Part shown: positions 15,535 through 52,365 of the stretch, piece by piece
How positions within the stretch are numbered: the stretch's first letter is position 1
Layout: each line of letters opens with the position of its first letter
DNA from: Candidatus Woesebacteria bacterium
GTDB lineage: Bacteria; Patescibacteriota; Microgenomatia; UBA8517
Length of the DNA stretch: 64,000 nucleotides
Direction of reading: 5' to 3'
Assembly (NCBI GenBank): GCA_963716475.1
Contig: OY970314.1
Span: forward strand, 10,479 to 74,478
Notes under the pieces: model-generated
The model's database searches: none
What the model was told of the DNA's origin: nothing
What the model saw: the letters and a program-made list of their open reading frames with translations, nothing else
Position numbers and translations under genes: made by a program

Positions 15535-15542
15535 GGCAGGTG

Positions 15543-23740: not shown

Positions 23741-26700
23741 TCATTTAAATATGAGACCTTTAAAAATTGCACCCTTGAGTTGGGAATTTATATTTGCCGG
23801 AGCACCAGAGGCGATTGTGGTAAAAGAGTAGGGGGAAGCCTGGGTAGAACTCCATGTACTACTTCCGCCGGGGTCTTTTGCATAGCTGTCCCAATAATAA
23901 GTCTTATTATTTTGAAGAGCTGATTGAACTGTATAAGTTGCTTGCGAATTGTCTGTGTAGTCTGTATAAGGACCCCCCGGTGGGTAATTTTGACCGGACC
24001 ATCCGGTTTGGTCACCTGTTTGATCAAAAGTCTGACAGTTGGTTGTCATTCCCGGGTTTTCGCAAAGAACAATTTTATATTTCATATAATCGCCGTCCGT
24101 GTCATGTGCAGTAGTCTTTAATGCAGGTGTTGTCGATTGACCCGAGGAGGTATCACCGGGCGAATCAAGTGACGGTATATTGGGGGCAGAGTTGGTACAT
24201 GTTGGATTCATAGTGATGGTATAGCCGTAATTATTTCCGTCGCCGGTTGAATAAGTGGCACAAATGGTTCCGGTGTTGTTGTGGGACCAGGATAGATCTA
24301 CATAGGTAACAGAAGTATTAGCCGGCGTAATATCCCATCTGCTACCTCCACTGGATTGAAGATATAGTTTATAGCTTCCGGTACCGTTCATCGTCCAAGT
24401 TCCGGTGACAGTTGTCGTCGAACCACTAGCGTATTGAATATATCTGATATTTGAATTTGATGCGGTCGATGCTGACAGGTTGTTGAAGGTGGAGTTTCCG
24501 CTTATTGCCTGTGTTGAACTGTCGGCACCGTTAAGAGTAATAGTACTGCCCCCCGAAGCGGTAAAAGTGCTTGAATTTGACCAGTTGCCGGAAACGCTAA
24601 AGCTTGATGTTGTTGTCGTTACTCCCGTAATCGAAACGTTAACAAAAGCTAAAGCATTGGAATTCGTAATTGTTCCTCCGGACAGGGTAATTGTCCCCGC
24701 ATTGGGGGAGAAAGTTCCTGTTACATTAAGATTAGCGGCGGTTGCGGTATTGGAATTGCCCGATATTGACCCGGATATTTTTAGAGTTCCGTATGTCAGA
24801 TTAGAAAGAATCTGGCCACTAGCGTTATAGTCGACGGTCAAATTGGTAAGAGTGTTGGTCGAGAATTTATATTGTGATGAGTAGTCGGCGGTGGCGGAAG
24901 TTCTGGTAACCATTACGGTTCCGTTTCCGGTTATTGTACCTGCCGGGGCTGACGTATTGATTATCACTGATGCTCCCGGTGTAAAAACTCCGCCGGAGTT
25001 AACTGTAAACGTTCCACTTACACCAAAGTTATTATTTCCGGCGACCGCCGCACTTGTGTCAACGGCAAGACCGGAAAAAGTTAGGGTACCTGAATTTCCT
25101 ATTGAGCTGCCGTTGGTGAAGGTTATGGTTCCTCCCGATGGGGAAAAATTACTACTTCCCCCGACCGAAATTGCAGTTCCGACATAGAATGATGAGCTTG
25201 TTGTAACGGTTGCAGAAGCGGCAATTGCCAGAGTCTTGAAAGCCAGAGAACCCGCAGTATTTGAATTGGTTATTGAACCTCCATTCATTGTTACCGTCCC
25301 GCCCCCCGGTGCGAAATTACCAGACGCTCCTACCGAAAGCGCATTTGCCACAGCGAACGCGACATTAGAAGTGTTTGTGCCGTTGAATGCCACTCCGTAA
25401 AAAGTAATAGTACCGGAGTTGGTAATTGAAGTGGTAACTCCGGAGTCAAAATAAATTGTTCCACCGGTTGGCTGGAGCGTTCCTGATGAAAGTGTTAGGC
25501 TGTGACTGATTGTATAGTTTGCGTTCGATTGAGAACCCGGGGTAGTAGAAATTGTCAGGTCATAGAAGTCCAGAGAAGCTGCGGTGTTATTGTTTGTTAT
25601 TGTCCAGCCGCTTCCACTTAAAGTAATATTTGAACTTGCAGAAGGTGCCATACTACCGCTTGCACCGATTGTTAAAGCTCCGCCCACACTGAAATTGGAG
25701 GAAGTTGTAACTGTACCGTTAATTGAAAGACCGGAGAATGCCAATGTTCCGGAATTGCTAAGTGCTCCTCCTGTTAGTGTTATTACTCCTCCTGATGGGG
25801 AAAGATTTCCGGAGGAGCCCACTGAAAGGTTGTGGCTCACGGAAAATGAAGAGCCTGTATTTACAGTTGCAGAATTAGCGACAGCCAAGTCGTAGAACGA
25901 TAAAGTTCCCGAACTGTTAGTTATAGTTGAGGCGTTATTAAAGGTCGCCGTTCCTGCCGACGCGGTGAAATTTGCGGAACTATTTACGGTTAGGGTGCCG
26001 TTGAAATTAAAGCTTACACTAGGGGCAACAGTTCCTCCGGTATTTGAATCTGTAATACTTCCGAATGTTGTGGTACTGCCTCCGTTTATTGCTTGTCCCG
26101 AAGCACCGTTAAAAGTAATTGTGCTTGTTCCTCCCGAAAAAGTAGAATTGTTGGTAAAGTTGCCTCCGATTGACATATTGTAATTGCTTCCTGAGGTTGA
26201 AAGTGTTCCGCTTGAGATTGTTAGGGTTGCTCCTACCGTTGTTATTCCCAGAAGTGTTTTTGTTGAAGCACCGGAAACTGTTAAGTTGGAGTAGGTGGGA
26301 GCGTTGGCCACATTTTGTGACGAGGTTGATGCGTATTCAACTGTGCTTCCCGAGGTTAATGTGATATTTGTATATGATGTCGGGAAAGTTGTTACGCCGG
26401 ATGCACCCAACTTTAAAGTTGCACCGGAAGCTACCGATAAAGTTCCCGTGCCATTTCCTGTAATTTGATAACCTCCATCGGCAAAGGTTCCTGCGGAGAC
26501 AGTAAGGTCAGCCCCAACAGATATTGTATTTCCCAGAGTTCCGGTATGGCCGGACATACTTATTTGAAGGGTATTAAATGTAATGGCTCCGGAGGTTAGA
26601 AAAAGATCGGCGGAAGTTTCGCTGAAGTTTACAGAGGAACCCCCAGCAGTAAATAATCCGTTATTTGTAAAAAGGGTTCCTGACGTACTGTTGATTGTTA

Positions 26701-29140
26701 CCGAAGAGTTATTGGCATAGAATTTTCCACCACCTTCAATATTAATAGTACCCGTTGTGAAGGATTGATCCGAACCGGTATCAAGAGAACCATAAGCCGA
26801 AGTTTCGGCTTTAAGATCTGTTAATCCTGTTACAATTGTTGTGCCACTAAGGGTAACCGTTAGTGTATTGCTACCGCCTGAGGTGGGATCAACAGTAAAG
26901 TTATTATTGACTGTAAAAGCTGCACCCATTGTATAGCCGAAAGAAGTCGATATTGATGGGGAGAGTGTAAGATTATAGAAAGCGTTTGAGCCGGTAAAAT
27001 TACTGGTGCCGCCCAGTATTGCCGTTGGTGCGGTGATTCCGGTAAATATCACGGTAGAGCTGGACCCGGCACTTATTGAACCGTTATTGGTTAGAATTGT
27101 TCCCGATGTTCCATCCAGTGTCAGAGATGACGAGCTTCCGAAAGTCAAAGTTCCTGTATTACTAATGGTAACTGTGGCAGCCGCTTGAGCCCCGTCTACG
27201 GTGACATTGTTTCCTGCAGATATAGTTGCGATATCGCCGGCGATGGGTTGTCCGTTTCCTCCCGAACAACCCGCAGTCCAAGTTCCCACAGCACTCCAGT
27301 TTGCCGAAGCTTGAGAAGAGCATGTTGGCGTACCTCCCCCGGTCGGTTGGAAAGTACCGATACTTACCCCCGCATCATAATTGCCGTAATTATCTTTCTG
27401 AAAAACCACATATGTGTAATCTTGGCTATTTGTTAGAGAGTTAGTTGTACAATCCGATTCGCTATCACCATCCACTCTGGAGACAACGGTACTTCCAGAT
27501 GAAGAAACGACACAGGCAACAGTTGCCCCTCCGTTAGTGCTTCCTTTTGTTGGGGTTGATCCCTCAGTTGGCACCTCAGCTCCCGCCGATCCGGATGTCC
27601 AACGATAAACGACTGACCCTGCTGTTGTGTTAAAATCACCACTACTGCTTGTTGTCCAATGAACGGTTACCTGTTGATTTCCCGCAGAACCACCGGTACT
27701 TGTGGCACCACTGGGAGGGGTGTTGTCCACCGTTATAGTGTCGCTATCCGTATCACTACCGGCGATACGATTGTTATTACCGGATGTAAAAGTTGAACTG
27801 ACGGTACCTGTAACCGCGTAAGTTCCTTGAGCCAGTGAATGATCCGTAGCAGTGAAAATAACTCTGTAGTAGGAAGCTGATGTGGTAACCGGTATTGAGG
27901 TACCTCCGCTAAAAACCCAGTTATCACCACTTGGGGATGATACTGTGGAAAAATATTGCTGTGACATCGCATTATTCCAGATCTCCACACTGGCAATTGC
28001 TGACGTATTTGCCGTCGTGACAGTAAGGCCGGTTACGCTATCAGTTGTGGTGTCGTTTGTAAAAGAAAACTGATCAAGATAATTATCGGTAGTTCCCGGC
28101 GCTACAGTTGGAGTGGAGGATGGATCTATTCCGTCGCCGAGAGTCGTTATAGCAGGAGTATAAATAACAACTATTATTCCTTGAATTCCGCTACCGCTAT
28201 TCGCAGTTGTACCGGCTTTTGCACCTCCACCGCCTCCACCGAAATTACCACCATTCCCTGCAGTAATCGTTGCGCCGTTACCCGAGTTTCCACCTCCGCC
28301 GCCTCCGGACCCATGGCTGCCGTCCCACTCTGTTCCGGGAGAACCGTTGTTTTGACCTGCGGCGCCTCCATTACCACCCACAGAATCATCACCCCTACCT
28401 CCGGCTGTGGTTACGTTATTGCTGGTTGTAGAATTGTCACCTCCGGGGTTTCCGTCTGCGGTACTACCACCAGCACCTCCGCCTCCCGAACCACCGGTTC
28501 CTGATGCGCCTGTTAAATTGCCCCCTCGGCCTCCGCTTGTACGTGTTTGTCCATAGCCGCTTGCTAAAGCGCCACCCGCACCACCATTTCTACTTCCAGA
28601 GCCGTTGACCCCCCCGGTTCCACCCTGTGCCCCGCATTTTGCATTATCAGTTCCGGCTCCGGGATCTGATGCTGCGTTCCAATAAGACACCCCACCGCTT
28701 GCCCCAGGAGTAGTATTGCCGGCCCCGGCTCCGCCAATACCAACACGGTACGTGGCTGTTGTTGTACCAGGGGATGCAAAAGAAAAATTGGTTATTTTAG
28801 AATACGCCCCTCCGCCGCCACCGGTTGAGTGATTACCGGCGGCACTTCCACCAGCTGCTCCACCACCCATGCATTCAACTGTATTATTAGAGTTATTCCA
28901 ATTAGAGGGTGAGGTAAAAGTCTGGTTGCTTCCTGTAGTTGTAAGGAAGGCAACACAAGTGCTTCCAACGGGGGAAAAAGGAGAGTTGCATATTGCAGCC
29001 TGTACATCATTAATTTTTGGTGGAAAAATTCCAAAGCTTGGAATTGAAACTGCCGGCCAGCCGGACAGAAGCCACGAGAATATCAAAGTTAGTATTAATA
29101 CCGGTTTTAAGACTTTCCTGATATTTTTAGTCTTTATCAT
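23741..29140 (-). CDS. Giant secreted Gly/Thr/Ser-rich beta-helical-repeat surface protein (1799 aa)
   Basis: Signal peptide 'VLKPVLILTLIFSWLLSGWPAVS'. N-terminal Gly-rich region ('GGGAAGGSAAGNHSTGGGGGA'). Long degenerate ~20-25-aa repeats ('TLSGGTITNSNALAFVNVSITG...'). The C-terminal ~130 aa are shared with the 1005-aa protein. Confidence 0.75.
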   Translation of the reverse strand: MIKTKNIRKVLKPVLILTLIFSWLLSGWPAVSIPSFGIFPPKINDVQAAICNSPFSPVGSTCVAFLTTTGSNQTFTSPSNWNNSNNTVECMGGGAAGGSAAGNHSTGGGGGAYSKITNFSFASPGTTTATYRVGIGGAGAGNTTPGASGGVSYWNAASDPGAGTDNAKCGAQGGTGGVNGSGSRNGGAGGALASGYGQTRTSGGRGGNLTGASGTGGSGGGGAGGSTADGNPGGDNSTTSNNVTTAGGRGDDSVGGNGGAAGQNNGSPGTEWDGSHGSGGGGGGNSGNGATITAGNGGNFGGGGGGAKAGTTANSGSGIQGIIVVIYTPAITTLGDGIDPSSTPTVAPGTTDNYLDQFSFTNDTTTDSVTGLTVTTANTSAIASVEIWNNAMSQQYFSTVSSPSGDNWVFSGGTSIPVTTSASYYRVIFTATDHSLAQGTYAVTGTVSSTFTSGNNNRIAGSDTDSDTITVDNTPPSGATSTGGSAGNQQVTVHWTTSSSGDFNTTAGSVVYRWTSGSAGAEVPTEGSTPTKGSTNGGATVACVVSSSGSTVVSRVDGDSESDCTTNSLTNSQDYTYVVFQKDNYGNYDAGVSIGTFQPTGGGTPTCSSQASANWSAVGTWTAGCSGGNGQPIAGDIATISAGNNVTVDGAQAAATVTISNTGTLTFGSSSSLTLDGTSGTILTNNGSISAGSSSTVIFTGITAPTAILGGTSNFTGSNAFYNLTLSPSISTSFGYTMGAAFTVNNNFTVDPTSGGSNTLTVTLSGTTIVTGLTDLKAETSAYGSLDTGSDQSFTTGTINIEGGGKFYANNSSVTINSTSGTLFTNNGLFTAGGSSVNFSETSADLFLTSGAITFNTLQISMSGHTGTLGNTISVGADLTVSAGTFADGGYQITGNGTGTLSVASGATLKLGASGVTTFPTSYTNITLTSGSTVEYASTSSQNVANAPTYSNLTVSGASTKTLLGITTVGATLTISSGTLSTSGSNYNMSIGGNFTNNSTFSGGTSTITFNGASGQAINGGSTTTFGSITDSNTGGTVAPSVSFNFNGTLTVNSSANFTASAGTATFNNASTITNSSGTLSFYDLAVANSATVNTGSSFSVSHNLSVGSSGNLSPSGGVITLTGGALSNSGTLAFSGLSINGTVTTSSNFSVGGALTIGASGSMAPSASSNITLSGSGWTITNNNTAASLDFYDLTISTTPGSQSNANYTISHSLTLSSGTLQPTGGTIYFDSGVTTSITNSGTITFYGVAFNGTNTSNVAFAVANALSVGASGNFAPGGGTVTMNGGSITNSNTAGSLAFKTLAIAASATVTTSSSFYVGTAISVGGSSNFSPSGGTITFTNGSSIGNSGTLTFSGLAVDTSAAVAGNNNFGVSGTFTVNSGGVFTPGASVIINTSAPAGTITGNGTVMVTRTSATADYSSQYKFSTNTLTNLTVDYNASGQILSNLTYGTLKISGSISGNSNTATAANLNVTGTFSPNAGTITLSGGTITNSNALAFVNVSITGVTTTTSSFSVSGNWSNSSTFTASGGSTITLNGADSSTQAISGNSTFNNLSASTASNSNIRYIQYASGSTTTVTGTWTMNGTGSYKLYLQSSGGSRWDITPANTSVTYVDLSWSHNNTGTICATYSTGDGNNYGYTITMNPTCTNSAPNIPSLDSPGDTSSGQSTTPALKTTAHDTDGDYMKYKIVLCENPGMTTNCQTFDQTGDQTGWSGQNYPPGGPYTDYTDNSQATYTVQSALQNNKTYYWDSYAKDPGGSSTWSSTQASPYSFTTIASGAPANINSQLKGAIFKGLIFK

Positions 29141-29144
29141 TTGT

Positions 29145-29895
29145 TTATTTTGCTACCACAATTTGCCACTCATTGTTATTTCCCAATTTATAAACCGCCG
29201 GTACTGTTTTCGGGGTAGAGTATTCATAGATTAGTTCTTTAGTTTCCCCAGCTTTCAAATTTACCTGCCAGGAAATTATTTTTCCTTCCTCACCTTTGTC
29301 AGTAACCTTGGCAGGTCCCTGCCAGGGGATAGTAAATCCTGCCGGGACGGTGTCGGAAATTTCTCCCTGAAAATCTTTTGATGCCTTAACAATAAAACGG
29401 ACGGGATATCTTTCAGACCAAACCCGGATTAATTCTGGTTGCGGCTTCCCTGACTATATCAAGATCTCTTTTATCAACTACCTTAAATGTATTATTGGTT
29501 AAGTTTTTGGTGTCCAAATTTGTTAACTTAAGTTTGTAGGTTCCTGTTTTTTGAGGAACAAACTTGAAGAAATAGTCCGGATTGTTAGTCACATTATCTC
29601 CGCAAGTAGAAGATTTTTTGATATCTTTCATTTTTGTACCGTTTATTTTTAGTTCCAAATTAGCATCACAAAGAGTATTTCCATTTGGATCAAGCACCCC
29701 CATTTGGATGGTTGCAGTTTCGCCGGGTAAATACTCCGTCCTATCGCTGTTTACGGCCAGGATGCCTTTCGATAAATTATTATTTGCTATGTTATTTTTA
29801 GTCAAAATAATGTACACAAAAACACCCCCGAGCAAAAGTAATATGGCTTTTGTGATTAATATCTTTTTATTTATTTTTATTTTTTTGTTGCTCAT
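29145..29895 (-). pseudogene. Frameshifted paralogue of the N-terminal Ig-like domains of the adjacent 1005-aa protein
   Basis: The 160-aa ORF (29413-29895) is homologous to residues ~150-260 of the 1005-aa protein ('CGDNVTNNPDYFFKF..TGTYKLKLTNLD' vs 'CGADNVTDSPDYYSYY..GIYRMKLTNLD'; 'ATRINP'). The homology continues in another frame down to the TAA at 29145 ('ISDTVPAGFTIPWQ...WQVNLKAGETKELIYEYSTPKTVPAVYKLG' vs 'IKEEVPQSFQI...WDTVLKAGVAKTFSYTYQAPNITPQIFLLG'). The frameshift lies near 29410-29435. Confidence 0.5.
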
Positions 29896-29905
29896 TTTAA
29901 AATAA

Positions 29906-40848: not shown

Positions 40849-41455
40849 GGGGAGCAGTGGGAGAAGTTGTCCCTATTCCGACATTGCCTGCAAAGTAGTT
40901 ATTTGAAGCTGTCTGGGAGTAGATTCCGTAGCTCCAGCCAGTCCCTATGTTAACTGCATACCCGGTTCCTGCCCCTGCTGTTATGCCGTCAATCTTAATG
41001 GCATTCTCGGAAACACCGGATGTCGGAGTAAATCCTACCATTCTATATCCGTTCCAGGTACTGCCGCTGCCTACGGTGTTGGAGGTTAAATCGATTCTTT
41101 CGGCACTGGCTTCAATTGCACCCGACCCGGCCACGTAGCTGATTTGTATACCACTTACGCCTGCGGATGTAACCCCGTAACCGGTATTGGCAATATTGAC
41201 CATATCGGCAGTCGGAACGGCTGAGGTTGCGACTTTGATCTGTCCCGTTACATCGGAAACGGTAAGGCCGGCTGCCCAGGTGTTGGATCCTGATTTATAT
41301 GCCAGGGTAAGTGGACCGTATTGGGATCTGATGGCATCTCCGTATCCTACCGTCAGAGTACCGCTCATTGAGGCATCTCCTGTTGCCGCAAATACCTGGA
41401 ACCTGGCAGAAGCAGTTGAGTTTCCTCCTACTGCCAGATCATAATCCGATGAATT
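40660..41455. repeat. ~0.8-kb near-identical intragenic repeat, copy 2; spans the ORF junction and carries the extra C
   Basis: Same evidence as copy 1. Offset is 2692 nt from copy 1. Confidence 0.7.
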
Positions 41456-44400: not shown

Positions 44401-47400
44401 TACAGCCTGATACACCTCCGCCTGCATCACAGACCTGGTTTACGCCCTGATATAGTTTCTGTGCATATATGTTCCTGAATTCCAGAGAAGAGGAAGTACC
44501 TAAATCAGTTCTGTCTGTGATACCCGGAGAGACATTTCCTCCTGTTATATTATTGGAAGGAGCAAGGACAATGTTGCCTGTTGTTGTTCCCCCAATGGTT
44601 AAAGGACTAAAGGTGTTTGTCTGGATGGATGATGCTCCTGCATGGAATAAAAGACCGCTTACGGATGCATTTCCGTAAACATCCAGGTTGACACCTGGAA
44701 CACCTCCTATACCAAGCCAACCTTGTATAAAAACATTGCCATTGGTAAAATAGCCTGCCCAATTCGTAGTCCCGCCTGTGGCGGTACCGTAGACGCCATA
44801 ATTTGTTGCGGATCCTTGTGCGTTCCCCTCGACCCCATAGACATTACTATTGCCTTTGGCGACGCCGAGTACGCCAATATTGGATCCTAAAGTACTGAGA
44901 GCATTGCCGGTGATAGCGGTTTGGCTGCTGTCATTGGTGGTGGTGATTAAACCAGCGCCGTAACCGATAGCTGCTAATATTTCTAATTTTGCTGTTGGTG
45001 CCGTTGTTCCAATACCAACATTGCCAAGCGAAGCCACGGGATTAAGAAGTATATTTCCGGTGGTGTCGTAGGTTGATGAATTTCCAAGAACTAGATTGTT
45101 ACGGTTTGTTGTGGATATATTTCCGTTGCCGTCAATAAAAGTAGCTACCCCTGCAGTTGTTCCTGCGATACTGGCTGTGGGTGTTCCTCCTGTGGGAATA
45201 CCTGTGAAAGCAAACTTGGCACTGGTGGTGGCTGTTGCCGCCGTGGCACCAAAGAAAACATTAACAGTATTATTAAGTGGGTAAATGGATCCTAGGGATT
45301 GTCCCCAGATGGTAGCTCCTGCGGGGCATCCTGTGCCTCCCGCATCACAGACCTGATTTGCTCCCTGATATATGGTTGTTCCTTTGATATTTGTGCCATA
45401 TATATTCCTCCAAAGTAGGGAAGAAGTTCCAAGGTCGCTTACATTTGTGGTATTTGGTGCCACATATCCGCCGGCGATGTGATTGCTCGGATCGAGTGTG
45501 ATATTACCTGTTGAATTTCCACCAATGACCAGTGGATTAAAAGCAGTGGTTTGGATAGTTGGTGAACCGGCTGTTCTAAAGGTTAGTGATCCCGATACTG
45601 AGGCTGCTCCGGCCACATCAAGCGTGGAGGTTGGAGCAGTTGTACCGATTCCGACCCTGGAGTTATTGGTATCAAGTGACATAAGAGTGGATTCAAAAGA
45701 AAGGGCATTGACGGTAGCATTTTTAAGATCAAGGTTTGGTGTGCTGTTACTGAGTGTCCAGGTATTGGGCCAGATGGTTAAGCTGTCACCCGTGGCATCT
45801 CCAAGTGTGGTATTACCCTGGATTGTTCCTGCATTTAGAATGGCATTCCCTGAAGAATCAATAGAGTAGGTAGTTCCGTTAAAGTAAAGGTATCCTGCCC
45901 CGGTTGTTAAGTTGGCTCCGTTGGCAGTTAGGGCAGTTGAACCTCTGGAGTTAATGATGACATTACCTGTGGAAGTGCCTCCGAGTGTCAGGTCCTGGGC
46001 TTTGGTTGTTGATAAGACTCCGTTACCCGTCAGGTAAGTGGCATACCCTGCGGCACTTCCCGCAATACTGGCTGTGGGAGTTCCACCGGTATTTACCCCT
46101 GTGAAAGCAAACTTGGCAGAGGAGGTGGCAGTTGAACCGATGAGAAGATCAACGCTGCTATTCTTGGGATATATGGCTCCGGCGGCTACGCTCCAGAGAT
46201 CGGTAGCTGCCGCACAGTTTCCAGAAGAATCACAAACTGCATTGTTACCGGCTCCCTGGTAGAATGACGTGGCATATATATTCCTCCAGAGCAGGGAAGA
46301 AGTACCAAGGTCAGATACATTTGTGGTATTTGGTGCAACATATCCGCCGGCGATGTGGTTAGAAGGATCGAGCGTGATATTACCGGTTGAATTTCCACCA
46401 ATGACCAGTGGATTAAAAGCAGTGGTTTGGATGGTTGGTGAACCGGCTGTTCTAAAGGTTAGTGATCCTGATACTGAGGCTGCTCCGGCTACATCAAGTG
46501 TGGAGGTTGGAGCAGTTGTACCGATTCCGACCCTGCCTGTTCCCAAATTAAACCAAGCATCCGCATTATTGGTTCCGGGTACGTGGAAGTAGGCTGAGGT
46601 ACTGGCAGTGTTACCTACATTAAATGCATATGTTGAGTTAGCAGGGGATAGTGAGACCCCGCCGGTTAGTTGCCAGTAGTTAGTTCCGAGTGTGGCAGGA
46701 TCACTCCAAGTATTGACTCCTCCTGCAGCTGAAGTTAGGAGATATCCTGAGGCACCGGCTACTCCTCCCGGAAGTAGGGCATTGGAGTACGAGACGTTGC
46801 CGATTCCTGCTAAAGCATTACCACTACCTACATTCAGGGAAGCAGACATTGTGGCGTAACCTGTTAAATTGAAGTTTCCATTTACATCCAGTAATTGTGA
46901 TGGGGAGGTGGTACCAATACCTACGTTGCCTGCGTTTGTTATTCTCATCTTTTCTGTTAATGCTCCTCCGGAAGAATTAGAAGTTAAAAATTGCATATAA
47001 CCGGCGGCATTTCCATCCGAGGCGTTTTCCTTTCTGCCAGCTAGACCTGCGAATGGAGTTGAAACTCCGCCGGAAGAGTAAATACCACCAATAGAAATTT
47101 GGCCGCCCTTGTCTATTGCATAAGCGTCCGTCGAAGAAACATAAACATTTCCTTTTGAGTTAAGAGCCTGGTTTGCACCGGCGGCATGTAATATGGCTAG
47201 GGGAGACGTTGTCCCAATTCCCACACTCCCGGCCGCATCAATAATAACCTTTGTTGTAGAGCTATTGACAAACTCAGCGAGAGTCCCGCTTGCAGCGGCT
47301 GAGTTAACTTCTACGTGTAGTCCTACGATTGTAGAGGAAAGGTTTTGAGCTCCGGCTTTAAACCAGCCTGCATATGCTTTATCTCCGGCGACGTCTCCCG

Positions 47401-49882
47401 TACCTCGGGCAGTACCAATAACCCCGTAATTTATTCCTGTCCCAGTGCCAAGAGTTCTTCCTTCTGTACCCAATATGGCGAAATTTGTTCCCGACGGTTC
47501 ATATCCCGTAGATGCACCCTGGACATACAGTTTTGCTGTCGGAGCGGTGACTCCAACTCCCACATTTCCAGTTCCCAGATTAAACCAGGCATTATTGTTG
47601 GTAATTCCGGGTACATGGAAGGTGGTTGAGGCTGAAGTGCTGGCGGTATTGCCTATATTAAGTGCATATAAATTATTGGCAGGGGAAAGGGAGACCCCAC
47701 CTGTTAGTTGCCAGTAGTTGGTACAACCTGAGCCGCTACTGTCGCACACCTGGTTTACTCCCTGATATAGTTTCTGCCCATATATGTTTCTGAACTCCAG
47801 GGAAGAGGAAGTACCAAGATCTGTTTTATCTGTGGAGCCCGGGGAGACATTACCTCCCAAAACATTATTTAAAGGAGCGAGGACGATATTGCCCGTTGTA
47901 GTTCCCCCGATTGTTAACAGATTTGAGGCAGTGGTTTGAACAGACCTTGATCCTCCTGCAAGTGTTAAATCACCCGAAGCTGAAGCACTTCCTGTTACAA
48001 CCAATAGGCCGCTTGCCGGGGTGATCGTGATATTTCCGGAAAGGTTTGAGATGCTCGAAGAGGCATTGTACAGATTTAAAGTTCCGTCATTGGACAGGGT
48101 CAATCTGGTTGAGCCCGATGCTGATGCAGTAAGTATATCTTGTGATTCATACTGATCTACCAGGAATGCCGCTTTCCCGGTCGCGTTGGCTGAGGGTGCA
48201 ACAACAGAGAGTTTTGAAAATGGAGAGGATGTCCCTATACCTATGTTCCCGAAGCCGTTGGGATTAAGGAGAACATTTCCGGTTGTGTTGTAGGTTGAGG
48301 AGTTACCGATGGTTATGCTATTGCGGAGAGTGCTTGAAATGTTACCGTTTCCGTCAATGAAGGTGGCAACACCGGCTGTTGAACCGGAGATACTTGCTGT
48401 CGGAGTATTTTTCAGAACGTTAATGAATGCAAACTTGGCACTGGCTGTGGCACTATTCCCGATTAAAAGATCCATAGTGGTATTACCCGGATATATGGTT
48501 CCGAGGCCAAGGGCCCAGTAGTTGGTTCCAAGGCTTGAAGGGCTTGTCCAAGTAGGCGGTCCGCTATTATTGTGCGTTGTTAAAATATTACCTTCAGTTC
48601 CTGCACCAAGTATTCCACCCATAGTAGTGGTGCTATCGTAGTAGGGAATTGCATACTGAGTGGCCGACGAGTTATTTGCTCCTGTCCCGCCGTATTGTAT
48701 GGGGACAACGCCGCCGTGCCAGGTTCCGCCTGTTATTGTTCCACCGGAGACCGCCAAGCCGTTAATTGTTCCCGATGCTGTTGCATTTCCAACTGCATCA
48801 ACAACAAATCTGTTTGCTGGTGTTGCCCCTGCCTGTAATTGTAGGAGATTGTAACCCGTGGCATTACTGGCGACGGCTCCGTAATAAAGAGATTTTGAGG
48901 TGAGGTTGGCGTCTGTCGCGTTCACAAATCCTCCTGCGCTGCCTCCCGGAGCAGCCCCCGAAAAGTTAAAATTAGCAGATCCGGTTCCATCTGGTGCGAT
49001 AGTGATTGATCCATTAGAACTTGTAGGAGTGCTTATTGTCAGAACTTGTCCTTCAATTGCAAATGTGCCCGATGTTGACTGAATTTTGGGAGAGCCTGCT
49101 GCAATGACCATCTGCCCGGAGTTATTCAATACGGGAACGGTATTGATTGTCGCGGATGAACTGGCCGGATAGCCTTGCAGAGTTTCGGAGTTCAAAGCAT
49201 AGGCAACGGTTGCGATCTGGACTCTGGGAATGGCCTCGGCATCGGCTGCAACAGTAACTCCCAGCCAGACAGCCGCGTTATCCGAAAAAACGCTGCTTGT
49301 AAGTTCTGTTCCGCATCCGTTTCCGAGGAGGATAGAGAAGACTCCATCAATGTCCGGAGAAACGGAACATGAACCTGAATTCCAAAGTGTGCTGCCACCG
49401 CTGGAATTATCGTATAGTTTGAATACAACACCAGTAGCAGTTGTTATCGGATTTCCAAATTGATTTGTCAGCCTGCCCTGGAATGATAGGTAACGGTTCG
49501 GACGGTTCAAGGCAGTAAGAGCGAACGGGGAAGTGGCATTCTTAAAAAACTGATTATATATTCCCAGGCCGACCAGAGATGTAAGGATTAAGGCTATCGC
49601 AATATTAAGATAGTTAACTCCAGGTATGCTTCGATACCTATTGTACCAATTGTAAAGCCTGATTTTCCCCGCAGGTTTTGCGGAGATTTTCCTTTCCTTT
49701 TGCTTTTGAGCCGAGAGAAGATCTCCAAGATTTGTATCTACAATGCCTTCACTTTTAGCCCAGTCAAGAAACTTGCCGATGGATATTGATTTTCTTTTAA
49801 CTGTTGCGGGCGAGAAGTGCCCGATAAGTTCTTCCTGATATTTTCTTATTAAATCCGGTGTGATATTGGGCAGGGTAGCCAT
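40802..49882 (-). CDS. Giant repetitive surface protein, 3026-aa ORF: cytoplasmic SAM-like half-domain, one TM, then tail-fibre-like repeat modules
   Basis: N-terminus 'ITPDLIRKYQEELIGHFSPATVKRKSISIGKFLDWAKSEG' (integrase core-binding-like). TM 'YLNIAIALILTSLVGLGIY'. Then repeats identical in part to the 2648-aa ORF. It ends '..DVAGNGLCLRNPGL*' exactly where the sibling repeats read '..DVAGNASVSGTLAFRAG'. Confidence 0.8.
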   Translation of the reverse strand: MATLPNITPDLIRKYQEELIGHFSPATVKRKSISIGKFLDWAKSEGIVDTNLGDLLSAQKQKERKISAKPAGKIRLYNWYNRYRSIPGVNYLNIAIALILTSLVGLGIYNQFFKNATSPFALTALNRPNRYLSFQGRLTNQFGNPITTATGVVFKLYDNSSGGSTLWNSGSCSVSPDIDGVFSILLGNGCGTELTSSVFSDNAAVWLGVTVAADAEAIPRVQIATVAYALNSETLQGYPASSSATINTVPVLNNSGQMVIAAGSPKIQSTSGTFAIEGQVLTISTPTSSNGSITIAPDGTGSANFNFSGAAPGGSAGGFVNATDANLTSKSLYYGAVASNATGYNLLQLQAGATPANRFVVDAVGNATASGTINGLAVSGGTITGGTWHGGVVPIQYGGTGANNSSATQYAIPYYDSTTTMGGILGAGTEGNILTTHNNSGPPTWTSPSSLGTNYWALGLGTIYPGNTTMDLLIGNSATASAKFAFINVLKNTPTASISGSTAGVATFIDGNGNISSTLRNSITIGNSSTYNTTGNVLLNPNGFGNIGIGTSSPFSKLSVVAPSANATGKAAFLVDQYESQDILTASASGSTRLTLSNDGTLNLYNASSSISNLSGNITITPASGLLVVTGSASASGDLTLAGGSRSVQTTASNLLTIGGTTTGNIVLAPLNNVLGGNVSPGSTDKTDLGTSSSLEFRNIYGQKLYQGVNQVCDSSGSGCTNYWQLTGGVSLSPANNLYALNIGNTASTSASTTFHVPGITNNNAWFNLGTGNVGVGVTAPTAKLYVQGASTGYEPSGTNFAILGTEGRTLGTGTGINYGVIGTARGTGDVAGDKAYAGWFKAGAQNLSSTIVGLHVEVNSAAASGTLAEFVNSSTTKVIIDAAGSVGIGTTSPLAILHAAGANQALNSKGNVYVSSTDAYAIDKGGQISIGGIYSSGGVSTPFAGLAGRKENASDGNAAGYMQFLTSNSSGGALTEKMRITNAGNVGIGTTSPSQLLDVNGNFNLTGYATMSASLNVGSGNALAGIGNVSYSNALLPGGVAGASGYLLTSAAGGVNTWSDPATLGTNYWQLTGGVSLSPANSTYAFNVGNTASTSAYFHVPGTNNADAWFNLGTGRVGIGTTAPTSTLDVAGAASVSGSLTFRTAGSPTIQTTAFNPLVIGGNSTGNITLDPSNHIAGGYVAPNTTNVSDLGTSSLLWRNIYATSFYQGAGNNAVCDSSGNCAAATDLWSVAAGAIYPKNSSVDLLIGSTATSSAKFAFTGVNTGGTPTASIAGSAAGYATYLTGNGVLSTTKAQDLTLGGTSTGNVIINSRGSTALTANGANLTTGAGYLYFNGTTYSIDSSGNAILNAGTIQGNTTLGDATGDSLTIWPNTWTLSNSTPNLDLKNATVNALSFESTLMSLDTNNSRVGIGTTAPTSTLDVAGAASVSGSLTFRTAGSPTIQTTAFNPLVIGGNSTGNITLDPSNHIAGGYVAPNTTNVSDLGTSSLLWRNIYGTNIKGTTIYQGANQVCDAGGTGCPAGATIWGQSLGSIYPLNNTVNVFFGATAATATTSAKFAFTGIPTGGTPTASIAGTTAGVATFIDGNGNISTTNRNNLVLGNSSTYDTTGNILLNPVASLGNVGIGTTAPTAKLEILAAIGYGAGLITTTNDSSQTAITGNALSTLGSNIGVLGVAKGNSNVYGVEGNAQGSATNYGVYGTATGGTTNWAGYFTNGNVFIQGWLGIGGVPGVNLDVYGNASVSGLLFHAGASSIQTNTFSPLTIGGTTTGNIVLAPSNNITGGNVSPGITDRTDLGTSSSLEFRNIYAQKLYQGVNQVCDAGGGVSGCSGINYWQLANHVLAPANSSDYDLAVGGNSTASARFQVFAATGNASMSGTLTIANGQAIQSAYGPLTLNYKSGSNTWSPGLTIADVTGAVKIAASVAPTTDVFTVSNTGYPVTTAGSSAIQLTYVAGSGAIEASAERIDLTSNTVGSGSTWNGYRMVGFTPTSGVSENAIKIDGITAGAGTGYAVNIGTGWSYGIYSQTASNNYFAGNVGIGTTSPTAPLDVAGAASVSGTLAFRAGTGTIQTTVFNPLVIGGNSTGNITLDPSNHIAGGYVAANTTNVSDLGTSSLLWRNIYGTNIKGTTIYQGANQVCDAGGGVSGCSGINYWQLANHVLAPANSSDYDLAVGGNSTASARFQVFAATGDASMSGSLTIGYGNGIQPAYGPLTLRYKSGSNSFVAGLTLTDINGYVGIGTTTPSVALDVNGNASVSGTLAFRAGTGYIQTTAFSPLTIGGNNTGNIILSPSTNAGNVVPGANNAIDLGTSSSLEFRNIYAQKLYQGVNQVCDAGGGVSGCGGTNYWQLTGGVSLSPANNLYALNIGNTASTSASTTFHVPGITNNNAWFNLGTGDLGIGTTSPTTSLQVRPLGSSASGYYWPFAVGNTDTGGTYLRMGRSADTSGVNAIQSIAAEGSVFGDLVLNPTGGNIGIGTTPVSRLDILGLVGVSPFNVASSSGGSLLNVASTGNIGIGTTAPVYKLQVEAGSALAARITTSSSIALRLTEGTYFNNVDFGVNSSGDLGITGGKVGIGINNPASKLDVLGTAGVSPLNVASSSGTSILNVAATGNVGIGTTNPSFPLSLGTTLGNKIALYDAGSGTGYGFGIQSSLLQEFAYDSSGDISFGYGSSSSFTRNVTFKGTGNVGIGTTSPTALLDVAGNASVSGTLAFRAGTGTIQTTVFNPLVIGGNSTGNITLDPSNHIAGGYVAANTTNVSDLGTSSLLWRNIYGTNIKGTTIYQGANQVCDAGGGVSGCSGINYWQLANHVLAPANSSDYDLAVGGNSTASARFQVFAATGDASMSGTLTVGYGDAIRSQYGPLTLAYKSGSNTWAAGLTVSDVTGQIKVATSAVPTADMVNIANTGYGVTSAGVSGIQISYVAGSGAIEASAERIDLTSNTVGSGSTWNGYRMVGFTPTSGVSENAIKIDGITAGAGTGYAVNIGTGWSYGIYSQTASNNYFAGNVGIGTTSPTAPLDVAGNGLCLRNPGL
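43560..44050. repeat. Near-identical intragenic repeat, copy 3 (partial; coordinates approximate)
   Basis: 43845..44036 is identical to 38255..38446, and 43611..43796 is near-identical to 38021..38206. Confidence 0.6.
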
Positions 49883-49885
49883 AAG

Positions 49886-50431
49886 TTAATTTTTTGATTT
49901 GTTTACCAAATTCTGATTTGGCCAAGTTTTGCTTATTTGTTTCTCAGATTCGAGCCAAAGAAGAAAATGTCTTATATCAGAAAGATAGTTTTTGATAGTG
50001 TTAGGAGAGACTTTCTCCCGCTCAAGCTGCCGCCTATAATCACTAAATATTGGATTAATACTAACTCCCTTGACAGGATTTGAACTGACGTTCTCGATGC
50101 CTTCGGTGAAATCATGATCGATAATGTGGCTTCCAAGTAGGAATCTTGACAGGTGCCTTAGGGTTGAAAGTCTGCGGTTTGTGGTCTTAGCCGGAACAGA
50201 ATTTCCAATCATGAAGTTTCTATATTCCTGAGCGAGCTCGGTGTTTAGAAAGGGGACAGTCTCAGTTAAAGATTCAATGTAGCTTCCCAATGATCTGATC
50301 TTCAATATAGCCCAGGCAAGGAAATGAACCAGATCGCTCCTGTAATTTTTATGGGATCGCGGGGAAAGACCTAGAGAGTTGAGGTAAATAATAAATTCTT
50401 TTCTGATTAAATCTGATTTTTGGTTGGGCAT
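49886..50431 (-). CDS. Tandem integrase-type SAM-like (core-binding) domain protein without catalytic domain (181 aa)
   Basis: First ~105 aa form a full Phage_integrase-N/XerD-N-like fold ('FIIYLNSLGLSPRSHKNYRSDLVHFLAWAI....TTNRRLSTLRHLSRFLL'). A second half-domain follows ('YRRQLEREKVSPNTIKNYLSDIRHFLLWLE'). No Tyr-recombinase catalytic region is present. The stop lies 2 codons in-frame before the giant ORF's ATG. Confidence 0.6.
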   Translation of the reverse strand: MPNQKSDLIRKEFIIYLNSLGLSPRSHKNYRSDLVHFLAWAILKIRSLGSYIESLTETVPFLNTELAQEYRNFMIGNSVPAKTTNRRLSTLRHLSRFLLGSHIIDHDFTEGIENVSSNPVKGVSINPIFSDYRRQLEREKVSPNTIKNYLSDIRHFLLWLESEKQISKTWPNQNLVNKSKN

Positions 50432-50466
50432 TAAGTTAAGGCTAGATTATACTAAATTATACTAAT

Positions 50467-52361: not shown

Positions 52362-52365
52362 GGCC

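What the first reader, a model, noticed from the sequence alone, without database searches (positions are those of the whole stretch)
23741..50431. 26.7-kb co-directional supercluster: SAM-like protein, giant fibre (x2 ORFs), 1005-aa BNR/Ig protein, frameshifted Ig paralogue, 1799-aa beta-helix protein
Five to six consecutive minus-strand genes have overlapping or 5-nt-spaced boundaries (49886/49882, 40848/40802, 32923/32902, 29145/29140). This implies one transcription unit driven from the AT-rich 50.43-50.95-kb region. Nearly all products are secreted. The locus is about 40 percent of the window and would be a major investment for a small genome. It is a candidate cell-surface attachment or episymbiosis apparatus, and the combination is not a described system.
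Basis: inference. Interest (0 to 1): 0.6.

Follow-up and report, generated by a model that had tools for sequence, protein, structure and literature searches.

The report
Membrane-anchored giant tail-fibre-like surface locus
A tiny Woesebacteria-type (CPR) bacterium spends about 27 kb on a roughly 5,660-residue, membrane-anchored protein built like a phage tail fibre, a small cytoplasmic partner that completes a split integrase-type domain, and variable accessory surface proteins, all next to a Pam pilus operon; this is probably its equipment for grabbing other cells.

Summary
The two "giant" ORFs are one gene of about 5,659 aa, split by a single extra G near 40830.

The conserved core is a two-gene module, not the whole 26.7-kb block. 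A 181-aa protein with integrase-type SAM-like domains and no catalytic domain is followed 3 nt later by the giant gene. This pairing held in all 20 related Microgenomatia loci examined. It sits behind an almost invariant promoter region.

The second SAM-like domain is split between the small protein's C-terminus and the giant's N-terminus. Several orthologues carry it fused and intact.

The giant has one TM helix, an Ig-like domain, and about 12 tail-fibre-like modules resembling Bdellovibrio MAT fibres and phage tail fibres. It ends in a phi29-gp12/Peptidase_G2-type autochaperone with a DLAEEY motif, followed by a conserved tail.

The 1005-aa, small Ig and 1799-aa genes are variable accessories. 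Directly upstream, outside the finding, lies an operon resembling the recently described CPR Pam pilus.

Verdict: a real surface-fibre locus and a new variant of known tail-fibre-like adhesins. The cytoplasmic SAM-like anchor appears undescribed. Its function has not been tested.

The parts
50552..50583 (-). Conserved upstream non-coding block U (ATGCGGTAATT[T/A]…GTGAAAT). In most relatives it contains an inverted copy of TAGTATAATT.
   Evidence: The alignment of 15 loci has many invariant columns here. The motif TGCGGWAATTATACTA occurs once per locus, always upstream of the SAM-like gene, in 19 of 26 loci. There is no Rfam match.
50440..50510 (-). Conserved promoter block P: TTGACA(50501-50496)-17 nt-AATAAT, followed by about three tandem ~10-bp TAGTNTAAT units and TAGCC. 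It ends 9 nt before the ATG.
   Evidence: 11/12 sigma-70 match; sequence. Nearly invariant in 15 loci and found once per locus in 18 of 26 loci. The exact 23-nt motif occurs in 14 metagenome contigs. In 13 of them a SAM-like start codon follows within 20-26 nt; in the fourteenth the script picked another ATG. It occurs once in the window against 0.03 expected.
49886..50431 (-). 181-aa cytoplasmic SAM-like protein. It has one complete tyrosine-recombinase core-binding (SAM-like) domain at residues ~8-100 and the first helix hairpin of a second at 127-164. There is no catalytic domain. pI is 9.8.
   Evidence: Pfam PF02899 at 12-99 and PF13495 at 131-164 (profile positions 4-36 only). NCBIfam XerC/XerD hits cover only the N-terminal ~100 residues. 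AF2 pLDDT is above 90. No TM segment. The family has 337 members of ~170 aa at 50-73% identity. pI.
32902..49882 (-). Giant fibre gene. It is one gene of about 5,659 aa, interrupted by a single-base insertion (extra G) near 40830 that creates the two listed ORFs.
   Evidence: Junction aligned against paralogous repeats. The repaired ORF has no internal stop. Orthologues are single ORFs of 1,160 to more than 5,000 aa sharing both its N- and C-terminal modules.
49733..49882 (-). Giant residues 1-50: a helix hairpin that forms the second half of SAM-like domain 2 (cytoplasmic).
   Evidence: Matches PF02899 profile positions 40-83 (E 0.17 alone). BLASTP against the SAM-like protein gives E 0.001. 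Concatenating the two proteins gives PF13102 at 128-233 (profile 5-92/98) and PF13495 at 131-212. The natural fusions P0243 and L022 have the complete domain. AF2 shows a hairpin with pLDDT ~90.
49544..49627 (-). Single transmembrane helix (residues 86-113), preceded by a basic stretch. This implies an N-in signal anchor.
   Evidence: Hydropathy scan. AF2 helix at positions 270-295 of the concatenate. Residues 50-88 have pI 10.45.
48758..49489 (-). Conserved extracellular base of the fibre: an Ig/macroglobulin-like beta-sandwich (residues ~132-211) plus the conserved stalk start, up to residue ~375.
   Evidence: 31-58% identity over residues 1 to about 375 (up to ~840 in the closest relatives) in 13 of the 17 orthologues compared; three others match only part of this stretch and one not at all. 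AF2 pLDDT 87-96. Foldseek's best matches are complement C5 MG domains, E about 0.01. 440 clusters (at 50% identity) match at E <= 1e-30.
34648..48757 (-). Variable mosaic fibre shaft: about 12 copies of a ~160-500-aa module (…GNVGIGT.P…LDVAG.ASVSG…DLGTSS..WRNIY…VCD..G..C…NYWQL…) in several cassette types.
   Evidence: Motif map. DNA repeats reach 1.2 kb at 92% and 419 bp at 98% identity. PDB hit to the Bdellovibrio MAT fibre Bd2133 (8ond_A), E 3.3e-4. PHROG tail-fibre families at E 6e-10 and 1e-9. The middle region differs between orthologues.
34168..34617 (-). phi29-gp12 / Peptidase_G2-type intramolecular-chaperone (autocleavage) domain. It starts at D5089 of 'TSF|DLAEEY' (D codon 34617-34615).
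   Evidence: Homologues P0155, P0164 and P0168 pass Pfam PF11962 (28.7-36.5 bits against a 25-bit cutoff). In P0155 and P0168 the PF11962 stretch overlaps the stretch that aligns to this motif. The A2 profile hits PDB 3gqh_A, the cleaved gp12 fragment, from its residue 1 'DFAEYF' (E 0.002). D, A and E are nearly or fully invariant. The AF2 model's top PDB match is 3suc, pre-mature gp12 (E 8.8e-4). BFVD returns 'Preneck appendage protein' (E 1.8e-10, TM 0.62).
32905..34167 (-). Conserved C-terminal tail after the chaperone domain, ending in a beta-sandwich (33153-32905: …VLYVKSKQAGQFVVGF…FNWWIVQVQ).
   Evidence: 38-59% identity to the C-termini of nine orthologues and of family representatives. 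AF2 pLDDT 81-95 for the last ~80 residues. Foldseek matches of ~70-90 aligned columns to phage tailspike and R-pyocin fibre structures, E 2e-3 to 0.1. Which part of the model these cover was not reported; I infer it is this confident C-terminal domain.
29906..32923 (-). 1005-aa secreted accessory protein: signal peptide, MG2-like Ig domain, unassigned middle, and a C-terminal ~215-aa domain shared with the 1799-aa protein.
   Evidence: Pfam MG2 E 1.2e-4, below the cutoff. Signal segment. The shared domain is 47% identical, E 1e-45. Relatives follow the giant gene in L010 and L022, and the shared domain appears in L016.
29145..29895 (-). Small membrane-anchored Ig (MG2-like) protein of ~245 aa, broken by a 1-nt frameshift near 29415.
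   Evidence: Three-frame translation compared with the intact L022 homologue. Pfam MG2 E 7.5e-6, 26.7 bits, below the 32.8-bit cutoff.
23741..29140 (-). 1799-aa secreted or anchored accessory protein: Gly-rich N-terminal region, long G/S/T/N-rich repetitive middle, and the shared C-terminal domain. Fold unverified.
   Evidence: No significant family or PDB match. Composition is G 15%, S 15%, T 16%. N-terminal hydrophobic segment at 7-33. Among the fetched loci only its C-terminal domain finds a match, in L016.
21674..23611 (-). 645-aa polytopic membrane protein with a Wzy_C-like region and TPR repeats. It is the conserved downstream neighbour of the giant gene in relatives.
   Evidence: Pfam. 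Ten TM-like segments. Its homologue follows the giant directly in L011, L018, L019 and L020.
51423..58853 (-). Upstream Pam-pilus-like operon outside the finding: 226 aa (polytopic), 238 aa (PamT-like), 306 and 358 aa (chaperone-like with C-terminal TM), 501 and 490 aa (pilin-like paralogues), 312 aa (PamR-like with C-terminal TM).
   Evidence: NCBIfam CPR_pilus_PamT E 3e-12 and CPR_Pam_pilin_C E 4e-6, both below cutoff. Topologies. Matches the architecture in Troman et al. 2026. Conserved upstream of the module in L001/2/3, L009, L018, L019, L022 and L025.
50803..51426 (+). Divergently transcribed, membrane-anchored Big_1 (invasin/intimin-type Ig) protein of 207 aa, between the pam-like operon and the module.
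   Evidence: Pfam Big_1 E 8.7e-10. Conserved in the same position in relatives.

Best explanation
The locus encodes a cell-surface fibre system.

Its conserved core is a two-gene module typical of the CPR class Microgenomatia.
1. A small basic cytoplasmic protein carries one and a half tyrosine-recombinase core-binding (SAM-like) domains.
2. A giant protein begins with the missing half of the second SAM-like domain. It crosses the membrane once (N-in) and then extends outward as a very long fibre built like a phage tail fibre.

Proposed mechanism:
- The module is transcribed from its own conserved promoter (promoter shown, use inferred).
- The small protein docks on the giant's cytoplasmic tail by completing the split domain (inferred from gene fusions and profile matches).
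- The exported part assembles as a trimeric fibre with the help of a C-terminal phi29-gp12/Peptidase_G2-type intramolecular chaperone, which probably cuts itself off at F|DLAEEY (inferred from homology).
- The variable, cassette-like middle of the fibre provides binding specificity for a host or prey cell or another surface (inferred by analogy with phage fibres and Bdellovibrio MAT fibres).

The 1005-aa, small Ig and 1799-aa proteins are lineage-variable accessory surface proteins. Two of them share a C-terminal domain. The neighbouring Pam-pilus-like operon is a second, separately described surface filament system.
For: Gene structure and repair.

Module conservation:
- The SAM-like gene is followed within -40 to +16 nt by a large gene in all 20 loci (contexts).
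- The organisms are Woesebacteria and other Microgenomates.
- 440 family clusters match at E <= 1e-30, with lengths of about 0.2-5.6 kaa (most of the best 150 are 1.2-5.6 kaa; the shorter ones include truncated proteins).

Split domain: half-domain Pfam matches, restored matches on concatenation and complete domains in natural fusions, and confident AF2 hairpins.

Topology.

Tail-fibre nature: Bd2133, PHROG tail-fibre families, repeat modules.

Chaperone domain:
- G2-type.
- Some family members instead carry an S74-type chaperone before the same tail. Pfam confirms this for P0125. SDxRLK-type motifs are seen by eye in P0279 and P0386.

Modular evolution: conserved ends with a variable middle.

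Dedicated conserved promoter.

Not viral: no relative of the SAM-like family in IMG/VR and none of the C-terminal module in phage genomes.
Against: - Nothing here is experimental. Trimer formation, cleavage, surface exposure and any binding partner are inferred.
- The window's own sequence does not reach Pfam significance for Peptidase_G2. The assignment rests on homologues, a profile-to-PDB hit at E 0.002, and fold matches to a model of mean pLDDT 65.
- The conserved C-terminus and variable middle are the reverse of phage and MAT fibres, where the tip varies. If the chaperone cuts, about 570 conserved residues would be released, and no reason for that is apparent.
- The gene carries a frameshift, as do two other surface genes nearby. 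In this genome the fibre may be inactive, or the assembly may contain errors.
- The role of the SAM-like module is unknown.
- No lifestyle or host information was obtained for this organism.
Confidence: 0.65

Rival explanations
1. The SAM-like array is a membrane-tethered DNA-binding module. The fibre would then be an outside-in signalling adhesin. Engagement or maturation of the fibre would change binding of the SAM-like domains to the tandem TAGTNTAAT repeats in the module's own promoter, giving autoregulation in the manner of ToxR/CadC or RsgI-type single-pass regulators. This is a sub-hypothesis about the cytoplasmic part and is compatible with the fibre model.
For: - Core-binding domains of tyrosine recombinases bind DNA (established knowledge). 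The fold matches XerD, lambda Int, Cre and 3nrw.
- The small protein and the giant's cytoplasmic tail are basic, with pI 9.8 and 10.0.
- Family members carry one to about four SAM-like units before the TM helix.
- Other CPR fibre-type proteins carry MerR-type HTH domains: P0198 and the 4,594-aa protein in L005. Whether those domains precede a TM helix was not checked.
- The promoter has about three 10-bp direct repeats plus one inverted copy upstream. It is almost invariant across genomes whose proteins are only 46-67% identical, and is found only in front of this gene.
Against: - There is no evidence of DNA binding. The repeats contain TATAAT and may simply be stacked -10 boxes.
- Conserved residues are the generic structural motifs of the fold.
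- A folded cytoplasmic domain could instead fix topology, cluster fibres or bind another protein.
- No regulon was detectable: the motif is absent elsewhere in the window and in the fetched loci.
Confidence: 0.12
2. The giant gene, the small Ig gene and one pilin-like gene are decaying pseudogenes. The locus would be a relic in this genome.
For: Three single-base frameshifts lie within 35 kb of surface genes. None is in a long homopolymer.
Against: - Each gene has only one lesion. The 9-kb and 8-kb halves of the giant are otherwise free of stops, so any inactivation is very recent.
- The lesions could equally be assembly errors or population variants in a metagenome-derived genome.
- Orthologues elsewhere are intact.
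Confidence: 0.15
3. The fibre is a general envelope or matrix structure, for example spacing, attachment to particles or biofilm, or protection, rather than a host-recognition device.
For: - Both termini are conserved while only length and cassette content vary.
- The neighbours include a Wzy_C/TPR envelope protein.
- No receptor-binding domain family was identified in this copy.
Against: - The closest characterised analogues, phage fibres and MAT fibres, are recognition devices.
- Relatives carry LamG/lectin-type inserts.
- The mosaic turnover of cassettes is typical of recognition proteins.
Confidence: 0.15
4. The locus is a prophage remnant (integrase plus tail fibres), or a recombinase-driven shufflon that rearranges fibre cassettes.
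For: Sources annotate the small protein as 'site-specific recombinase XerD' or 'integrase'. The fibre matches phage tail-fibre families. The gene is full of repeats.
Against: - The small protein has no catalytic domain. XerC/D models match only its first ~100 residues.
- The chromosomal position next to LeuRS/ComEA/ComEC is the same across the class.
- The fibre has a TM anchor, which does not fit a virion protein.
- There are no relatives in IMG/VR or phage genomes, and nothing in the scanned neighbourhood matched a capsid, portal or terminase family.
- Only short, chance-level inverted repeats occur.
- The promoter has the same orientation in all 15 aligned loci and in the 13 metagenome contigs that could be read.
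Confidence: 0.03

Closest known systems
Bdellovibrio bacteriovorus MAT (mosaic adhesive trimeric) fibres (Caulton et al. 2024, PMC10769870)
   Same: Both are cellular rather than viral proteins built from phage-tail-fibre-like segments, with a conserved cell-proximal end and mosaic exchange of modules. Part of the family ends in an autoproteolytic chaperone domain. There is direct sequence similarity to Bd2133 (8ond_A, E 3.3e-4). Both occur in a bacterium that lives on other bacteria.
   Different: MATs are about 1,000 aa, with a signal peptide and a conserved ~130-aa beta-rich N-domain, and their C-terminal tip varies. Here the protein is 1,160-5,659 aa with a cytoplasmic SAM-like domain and a TM anchor. 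The variable part is the middle. The C-terminus is conserved, and the chaperone is G2-type (S74-type in some relatives), followed by a further ~400-aa conserved tail.
Bacteriophage phi29 gp12 pre-neck appendage (tailspike) and its Peptidase_G2 C-terminal autochaperone (PDB 3gqh, 3suc)
   Same: The D-x-A-E motif sits at the start of the domain and aligns with residue 1 of the cleaved gp12 fragment. The fold matches. The domain lies after a beta-rich fibre or spike.
   Different: The host protein is a membrane-anchored cellular giant. The domain is followed by about 420 more conserved residues, whereas the solved gp12 fragment is 163 residues. Cleavage is not shown here.
Tyrosine recombinase core-binding (SAM-like) domain, e.g. 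XerD, lambda Int, Cre
   Same: Same fold and sequence family (Pfam PF02899, PF13495, PF13102; fold matches).
   Different: There is no catalytic domain anywhere in the module. The domains sit in front of a TM helix of a surface protein, and one domain is split between two polypeptides.
CPR Pam pilus operon (Troman et al. 2026, bioRxiv 10.64898/2026.03.03.709456)
   Same: The seven genes upstream (51423-58853) match its layout: a tip-pilin-like protein with NCBIfam PamT and Pam_pilin_C hits, two chaperone-like proteins with C-terminal TM helices, pilin-like paralogues, and an anchor-like protein. That preprint notes a 'tail fibre-like protein' near pam operons.
   Different: The finding itself is not part of the pilus. 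The SAM-like + giant module also occurs without a pam operon within the 10 kb fetched on either side in most other Microgenomatia loci. The preprint does not analyse the fibre protein.

Membership tests
Bdellovibrio-type MAT fibre family | Fibre segments homologous to MAT or phage beta-helical fibre repeats | tested here: met
   phmmer hit to Bd2133 (8ond_A), E 3.3e-4, over the GNVGIGT…L.V repeats. PHROG tail-fibre families at E about 1e-9.
Bdellovibrio-type MAT fibre family | Signal peptide followed immediately by the conserved ~130-aa beta-rich MAT N-terminal domain | not testable with these tools
   This protein instead has a cytoplasmic SAM-like hairpin, a TM anchor and an Ig/MG-like sandwich. 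No MAT N-domain sequence or structure was available to compare, and the afdb50 library was unavailable.
Bdellovibrio-type MAT fibre family | Variable C-terminal tip (adhesive fold) or a terminal S74 chaperone | tested here: not met
   The C-terminal ~580 aa are conserved across orthologues. They begin with a G2-type, not S74-type, chaperone in this copy. S74 occurs in some relatives.
Bdellovibrio-type MAT fibre family | Homotrimeric assembly | not testable with these tools
   Only monomer AF2 was available, and the fibre parts are low-confidence as monomers.
Peptidase_G2 (phi29 gp12) intramolecular chaperone domain | Sequence membership (Pfam PF11962) | tested here: inconclusive
   The window sequence alone gives no hit at E <= 1. 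Homologues at 31-41% identity pass the gathering cutoff. A family profile hits the gp12 fragment 3gqh_A at E 0.002.
Peptidase_G2 (phi29 gp12) intramolecular chaperone domain | Asp and Glu at positions i and i+3 of the motif, aligned with the N-terminus of the cleaved gp12 fragment. Their catalytic role is recalled from the gp12 literature and was not checked here. | tested here: met
   D5089-L-A-E5092 aligns with D1-F-A-E4 of 3gqh_A. D is nearly invariant, and A and E are invariant, in 24 family sequences.
Peptidase_G2 (phi29 gp12) intramolecular chaperone domain | Fold | tested here: met
   The top PDB match is 3suc, pre-mature gp12, at E 8.8e-4. BFVD returns 'Preneck appendage protein' at E 1.8e-10, TM 0.62. 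Model pLDDT is 78-93 in this domain.
Peptidase_G2 (phi29 gp12) intramolecular chaperone domain | Autocatalytic cleavage and release after trimer folding | not testable with these tools
   This needs expression of the C-terminal fragment and D/E mutants.
Tyrosine recombinase (XerC/XerD/integrase), as annotated by public sources | C-terminal catalytic domain with the R-K-H-R-H/W-Y active site | tested here: not met
   The 181-aa protein is covered entirely by SAM-like domains. XerC/XerD models match only their first ~100 positions, at 38-39 bits against a cutoff of about 330. The next gene starts 3 nt later. It is not a recombinase.
Tyrosine recombinase (XerC/XerD/integrase), as annotated by public sources | N-terminal core-binding (SAM-like) domain | tested here: met
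   PF02899 E 2e-13, above the cutoff. Fold matches to 3nrw (TM 0.76), XerD, lambda Int and Cre.
CPR Pam pilus system (for the upstream genes 51423-58853) | PamT and Pam pilin C-terminal domain | tested here: inconclusive
   The 238-aa ORF scores NF058579 E 3e-12 (46.5 bits against a cutoff of 240) and NF058581 E 4e-6 (26.9 against 55). It is related but below the curated cutoffs. The 490-aa protein shares its C-terminal region by tblastn.
CPR Pam pilus system (for the upstream genes 51423-58853) | Two chaperone-like proteins and an anchor protein, each with a signal peptide and a C-terminal TM helix | tested here: met
   The 306-, 358- and 312-aa ORFs each have N-terminal and C-terminal hydrophobic segments. 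Folds were not predicted.

The most novel reading that the evidence does not exclude
The giant fibre is a single-pass, outside-in signalling adhesin. Its cytoplasmic integrase-type core-binding domains are completed in trans by the small partner protein. They bind the tandem TAGTNTAAT repeats of the module's own ultra-conserved promoter (or other DNA), so that fibre assembly, cleavage or engagement with a host cell is coupled directly to gene expression. A recombinase DNA-binding domain would thus have been recruited as the cytoplasmic end of a surface fibre, across a whole CPR class.
Probability: 0.12. Interest if true: 0.85.

Novelty: new variant of a known kind. Interest (0 to 1): 0.62.

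Why it matters
How ultrasmall CPR bacteria find and hold on to other cells is largely unknown outside the Saccharibacteria, where pili are implicated.

This locus, and the family of at least 440 sequence clusters it belongs to, points to a second candidate device across the Microgenomatia. That device is a very long fibre rooted in the membrane and built from phage tail-fibre parts, often beside the Pam pilus operon.

It offers concrete, testable handles:
- a predicted self-cleavage site;
- a split domain that predicts a specific protein-protein contact;
- a promoter conserved almost base for base.

It also corrects a systematic mis-annotation. The small partner and many fragments of the giants are labelled 'site-specific integrase' or 'XerD' although they lack a catalytic domain. 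That labelling could be mistaken for evidence of mobile elements.

If the cytoplasmic domains do bind DNA, this would be an unusual direct link between a surface fibre and the chromosome.

Tried and rejected
- **Prophage or phage origin.** No relative of the SAM-like family was found in IMG/VR, and none of the C-terminal module in 50,697 phage genomes. The chromosomal position is fixed across the class.
- **Shufflon or invertible element.** Only short, imperfect inverted repeats occur. There is no catalytic recombinase. The promoter orientation is the same in all 15 aligned loci and in the 13 metagenome contigs that could be read.
- **Two separate giant genes.** Rejected by the 1-nt indel alignment and by single-ORF orthologues.
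- **WxL/Csc-type cluster for the upstream genes.** This was my first guess, from a weak WxLIP_PGBD hit at E 0.006. The NCBIfam Pam pilus hits and the 2026 preprint replaced it.
- **ComEC split as evidence of assembly indels.** Rejected, because the same split is present in relatives.
- **Known RNA in the conserved upstream region.** No Rfam match at E <= 1.
- **Regulon for the promoter motif.** The motif occurs nowhere else in the window, the fetched loci or the metagenome scan.
- **Family assignment of the 1005- and 1799-aa proteins.** Pfam, NCBIfam, PHROGs and PDB sequence searches gave nothing significant. 'BNR' and 'beta-helix' remain unverified.
- **Exact-sequence look-ups of the window's SAM-like protein.** Both found no contig on record.
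- **Literature.** Searches for a description of SAM-like plus giant proteins in CPR found none.

Full report
**Context.** The window is bacterial, with 23S and 5S rRNA at 16-3114 and one tRNA. Relatives of its proteins come from Candidatus Woesebacteria and other Microgenomates/Patescibacteria. Its proteins are recorded on one contig of 982,852 bp.

**Observation.**
- The two giant ORFs (3026 and 2648 aa) are one gene. The end of the first and the start of the second lie inside a repeat unit. Compared with two paralogous copies, the junction has one extra G. Removing it gives 5,659 codons with no other stop.
- The 160-aa Ig ORF is also a frameshifted gene. An intact ~245-aa homologue is present in locus L022.
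- Hydropathy shows N-terminal signals or anchors on the 1005-, 160- and 1799-aa products. The giant has one TM helix at residues 86-113. The SAM-like protein has no hydrophobic segment.

**What is conserved.** The 181-aa protein belongs to a tight family: 337 hits of ~170 aa at 50-73% identity. Public sources label them XerD or integrase, although they consist only of SAM-like (core-binding) domains.
- In all 20 related loci inspected, this gene is followed within -40 to +16 nt by a gene of 1,160 to more than 5,000 codons. That gene's product begins with the motif LP.ISP..[IV]K.YQ.E…S.AT.KRK..SL..F..WA.
- Most orthologues of the giant share its first ~375 residues, and nine share its last ~580. 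The middle differs in length and content, and includes LamG and glycine-rich inserts in relatives.
- An exhaustive search with the first 400 residues finds 440 representative clusters at E <= 1e-30, many of them 1.2-5.6 kaa long.
- The other genes of the 'supercluster' are not fixed. In L011, L018, L019 and L020 the giant is followed directly by the homologue of the 645-aa Wzy_C/TPR membrane protein (21674-23611). 1005/Ig-like genes follow it in L010 and L022.
- The 1005- and 1799-aa proteins share a ~215-aa C-terminal domain at 47% identity. Otherwise they match no family.

**A domain split between two genes.** Pfam matches residues 12-99 of the small protein to a whole SAM-like domain. Residues 131-164 match only the first two helices of a second one (profile positions 4-36).
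- The giant's residues 4-46 match the last two helices (profile positions 40-83). That match is weak alone (E 0.17). BLASTP to the small protein gives E 0.001.
- Joining the two sequences restores matches that span the junction: PF13102 at 128-233 (profile 5-92/98) and PF13495 at 131-212.
- In natural fusions (L022, P0243 and about ten other partial proteins) the second domain is complete and continuous, followed by the same TM helix.
- AF2 on the concatenate gives a five-helix domain, two separate helix hairpins, a TM helix and an Ig-like sandwich, all at pLDDT ~90.
- Fold matches are to recombinase core-binding domains and to macroglobulin-type Ig domains.
- Other family members carry up to about four SAM-like units before the TM helix.
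- I infer that the small protein docks on the giant's cytoplasmic tail by completing this domain. This is an inference from fusions and profiles, not a demonstrated interaction.

**The fibre.** The extracellular part contains about 12 copies of a module with GNVGIGT…LDV, DLGTSS..WRNIY and VCD..G..C…NYWQL motifs, in several cassette types.
- DNA repeats reach 1.2 kb at 92% and 419 bp at 98% identity.
- The fibre matches the solved Bdellovibrio MAT fibre Bd2133 (E 3.3e-4) and phage tail-fibre PHROGs.
- MAT fibres are trimeric, mosaic adhesins used by a predatory bacterium to recognise prey.

**The C-terminal module.** It starts with TSF|DLAEEY.
- Homologues pass Pfam Peptidase_G2. In P0155 and P0168 the matched stretch overlaps the stretch that aligns with this motif.
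- A 24-sequence profile hits the cleaved C-terminal fragment of phi29 gp12 from its first residue, DFAEYF (E 0.002). The D, A and E are nearly or fully invariant.
- The AF2 model's best PDB match is pre-mature gp12 (3suc, E 8.8e-4). In the viral structure library it matches 'preneck appendage protein' at E 1.8e-10.
- Some relatives carry an S74-type chaperone instead, followed by the same conserved tail.
- The final ~80 residues form a confident beta-sandwich. Short fold matches to phage tailspike and R-pyocin fibre structures probably correspond to it.
- By analogy, the domain should assist trimer folding and cut itself off. If so, about 570 conserved residues would be released, and I cannot explain why.

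**Regulation.** The 371-nt AT-rich spacer holds the best sigma-70-like site of the region, TTGACA-17-AATAAT at 50501-50473. It is followed by about three tandem ~10-bp TAGTNTAAT units.
- Aligning 15 loci shows 47 invariant columns in ~170 non-coding bases. A second conserved block lies ~120 nt upstream and, in most relatives, contains the same unit inverted.
- The motifs occur once per locus, always before the SAM-like gene.
- A scan of 241 million metagenome records for the exact 23-mer found 14 contigs. In 13 of them a SAM-like start codon follows within 20-26 nt; in the fourteenth the script picked another ATG.
- No Rfam family matches.
- This supports a dedicated, conserved promoter for the module. 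Whether transcription continues through all downstream genes is untested. Consensus scans show no terminator or promoter excess over shuffles.

**Surroundings.** The seven genes upstream (51423-58853) resemble the Pam pilus operon described in a 2026 preprint.
- The 238-aa ORF hits NCBIfam CPR_pilus_PamT and Pam_pilin_C, both below cutoff.
- Two chaperone-like proteins and one anchor-like protein have C-terminal TM helices, and there are two pilin-like paralogues.
- This block is adjacent to the module in the closest relatives, but is absent from the 10 kb fetched on either side in most other Microgenomatia loci.
- The preprint mentions a 'tail fibre-like protein' near pam operons and does not analyse it.

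**Rivals.**
- A prophage remnant or shufflon is unlikely. There is no catalytic recombinase, no phage relatives and no inverted repeats; the position is fixed and the fibre has a TM anchor.
- Pseudogenisation in this genome cannot be excluded. Three surface genes carry single-base frameshifts. Each has only one lesion, so error or very recent change is as likely.
- A signalling or DNA-binding role for the SAM-like array is the most novel reading still open. The proteins are basic, and the promoter repeats are suggestive. Nothing tests it.

**Verdict.** This is a real and substantial surface-fibre locus. It is a new variant of tail-fibre-like cellular adhesins, and its cytoplasmic, split, integrase-type anchor appears undescribed.

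Noticed in passing
window 51423-58853 (minus strand): Seven-gene block resembling the recently described CPR Pam pilus operon. It has a PamT-like 238-aa ORF (NCBIfam E 3e-12, below cutoff), two chaperone-like proteins and one anchor-like protein with C-terminal TM helices, two pilin-like paralogues, and a 226-aa polytopic membrane protein that has no named counterpart in the preprint section I read.
   Followed up: partly
window 50440-50583: Non-coding region conserved almost base for base across Microgenomatia. It contains about three tandem 10-bp TAGTNTAAT units overlapping -10-like boxes, plus an inverted copy ~90 nt upstream in most relatives. It is found only in front of SAM-like genes, including in a metagenome-wide scan. 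There is no Rfam match. It could be stacked promoters or a protein-binding array.
   Followed up: partly
window ~55000 (3' end of ORF 54967-56472): The 501-aa pilin-like ORF has a 1-nt deletion relative to its paralogue and its L001 orthologue. This replaces the conserved C-terminal strand (…SGYYYNIAKYTVTATF) with unrelated residues and makes the ORF run 4 nt into the next gene. Together with the giant and the small Ig gene, that makes three single-base frameshifts in surface genes.
   Followed up: partly
window 61771-63752: ComEC is encoded as two overlapping ORFs, a Competence domain and a Lactamase_B domain. The same split is present in relatives L004 and L007, so it is a lineage feature and not an assembly error.
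   Followed up: partly
L005 1-1063; proteins P0198-P0200 and P0207: A separate large fibre-type protein in L005 (4,594 aa, with LamG_3) carries MerR/HTH_17 DNA-binding domains, as do ~930-aa Daviesbacteria proteins that share the chaperone region. Together with the SAM-like arrays, this suggests a wider pattern of DNA-binding-type domains joined to CPR surface fibres. Whether the HTH domains lie before a TM helix was not checked.
   Followed up: no
proteins P0137, P0147, P0157, P0160, P0202, P0258, P0260: Some homologues of the giant's N- or C-terminal modules carry Hint/intein-splicing domains. One is named 'replicative DNA helicase' by its source, probably because of the intein. No intein was seen in the window's copy.
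   Followed up: no
window 6498-19743: Many further envelope and surface genes sit upstream of the finding: a sortase, a 914-aa unassigned protein, a dockerin-bearing phosphoesterase, an FN3/CarboxypepD_reg protein, a PMT_2/TPR membrane protein, and a LysM-M23 peptidase. The window as a whole is rich in surface functions.
   Followed up: no
L013, L014, L015, L019, L023 (record titles): Five genome records carrying this Microgenomatia-specific module are titled 'uncultured Gammaproteobacteria bacterium'. Gene content and synteny match the Woesebacteria/Microgenomates loci, so the labels look wrong.
   Followed up: no
window 23741-24385 and 29906-30560: The 1799- and 1005-aa proteins share a ~215-aa C-terminal domain (47% identity), which is also seen downstream of the giant in L016. 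It matches no family. There is a weak, unconvincing similarity to C-type-lectin-like NKG2-D (E 8e-4).
   Followed up: partly
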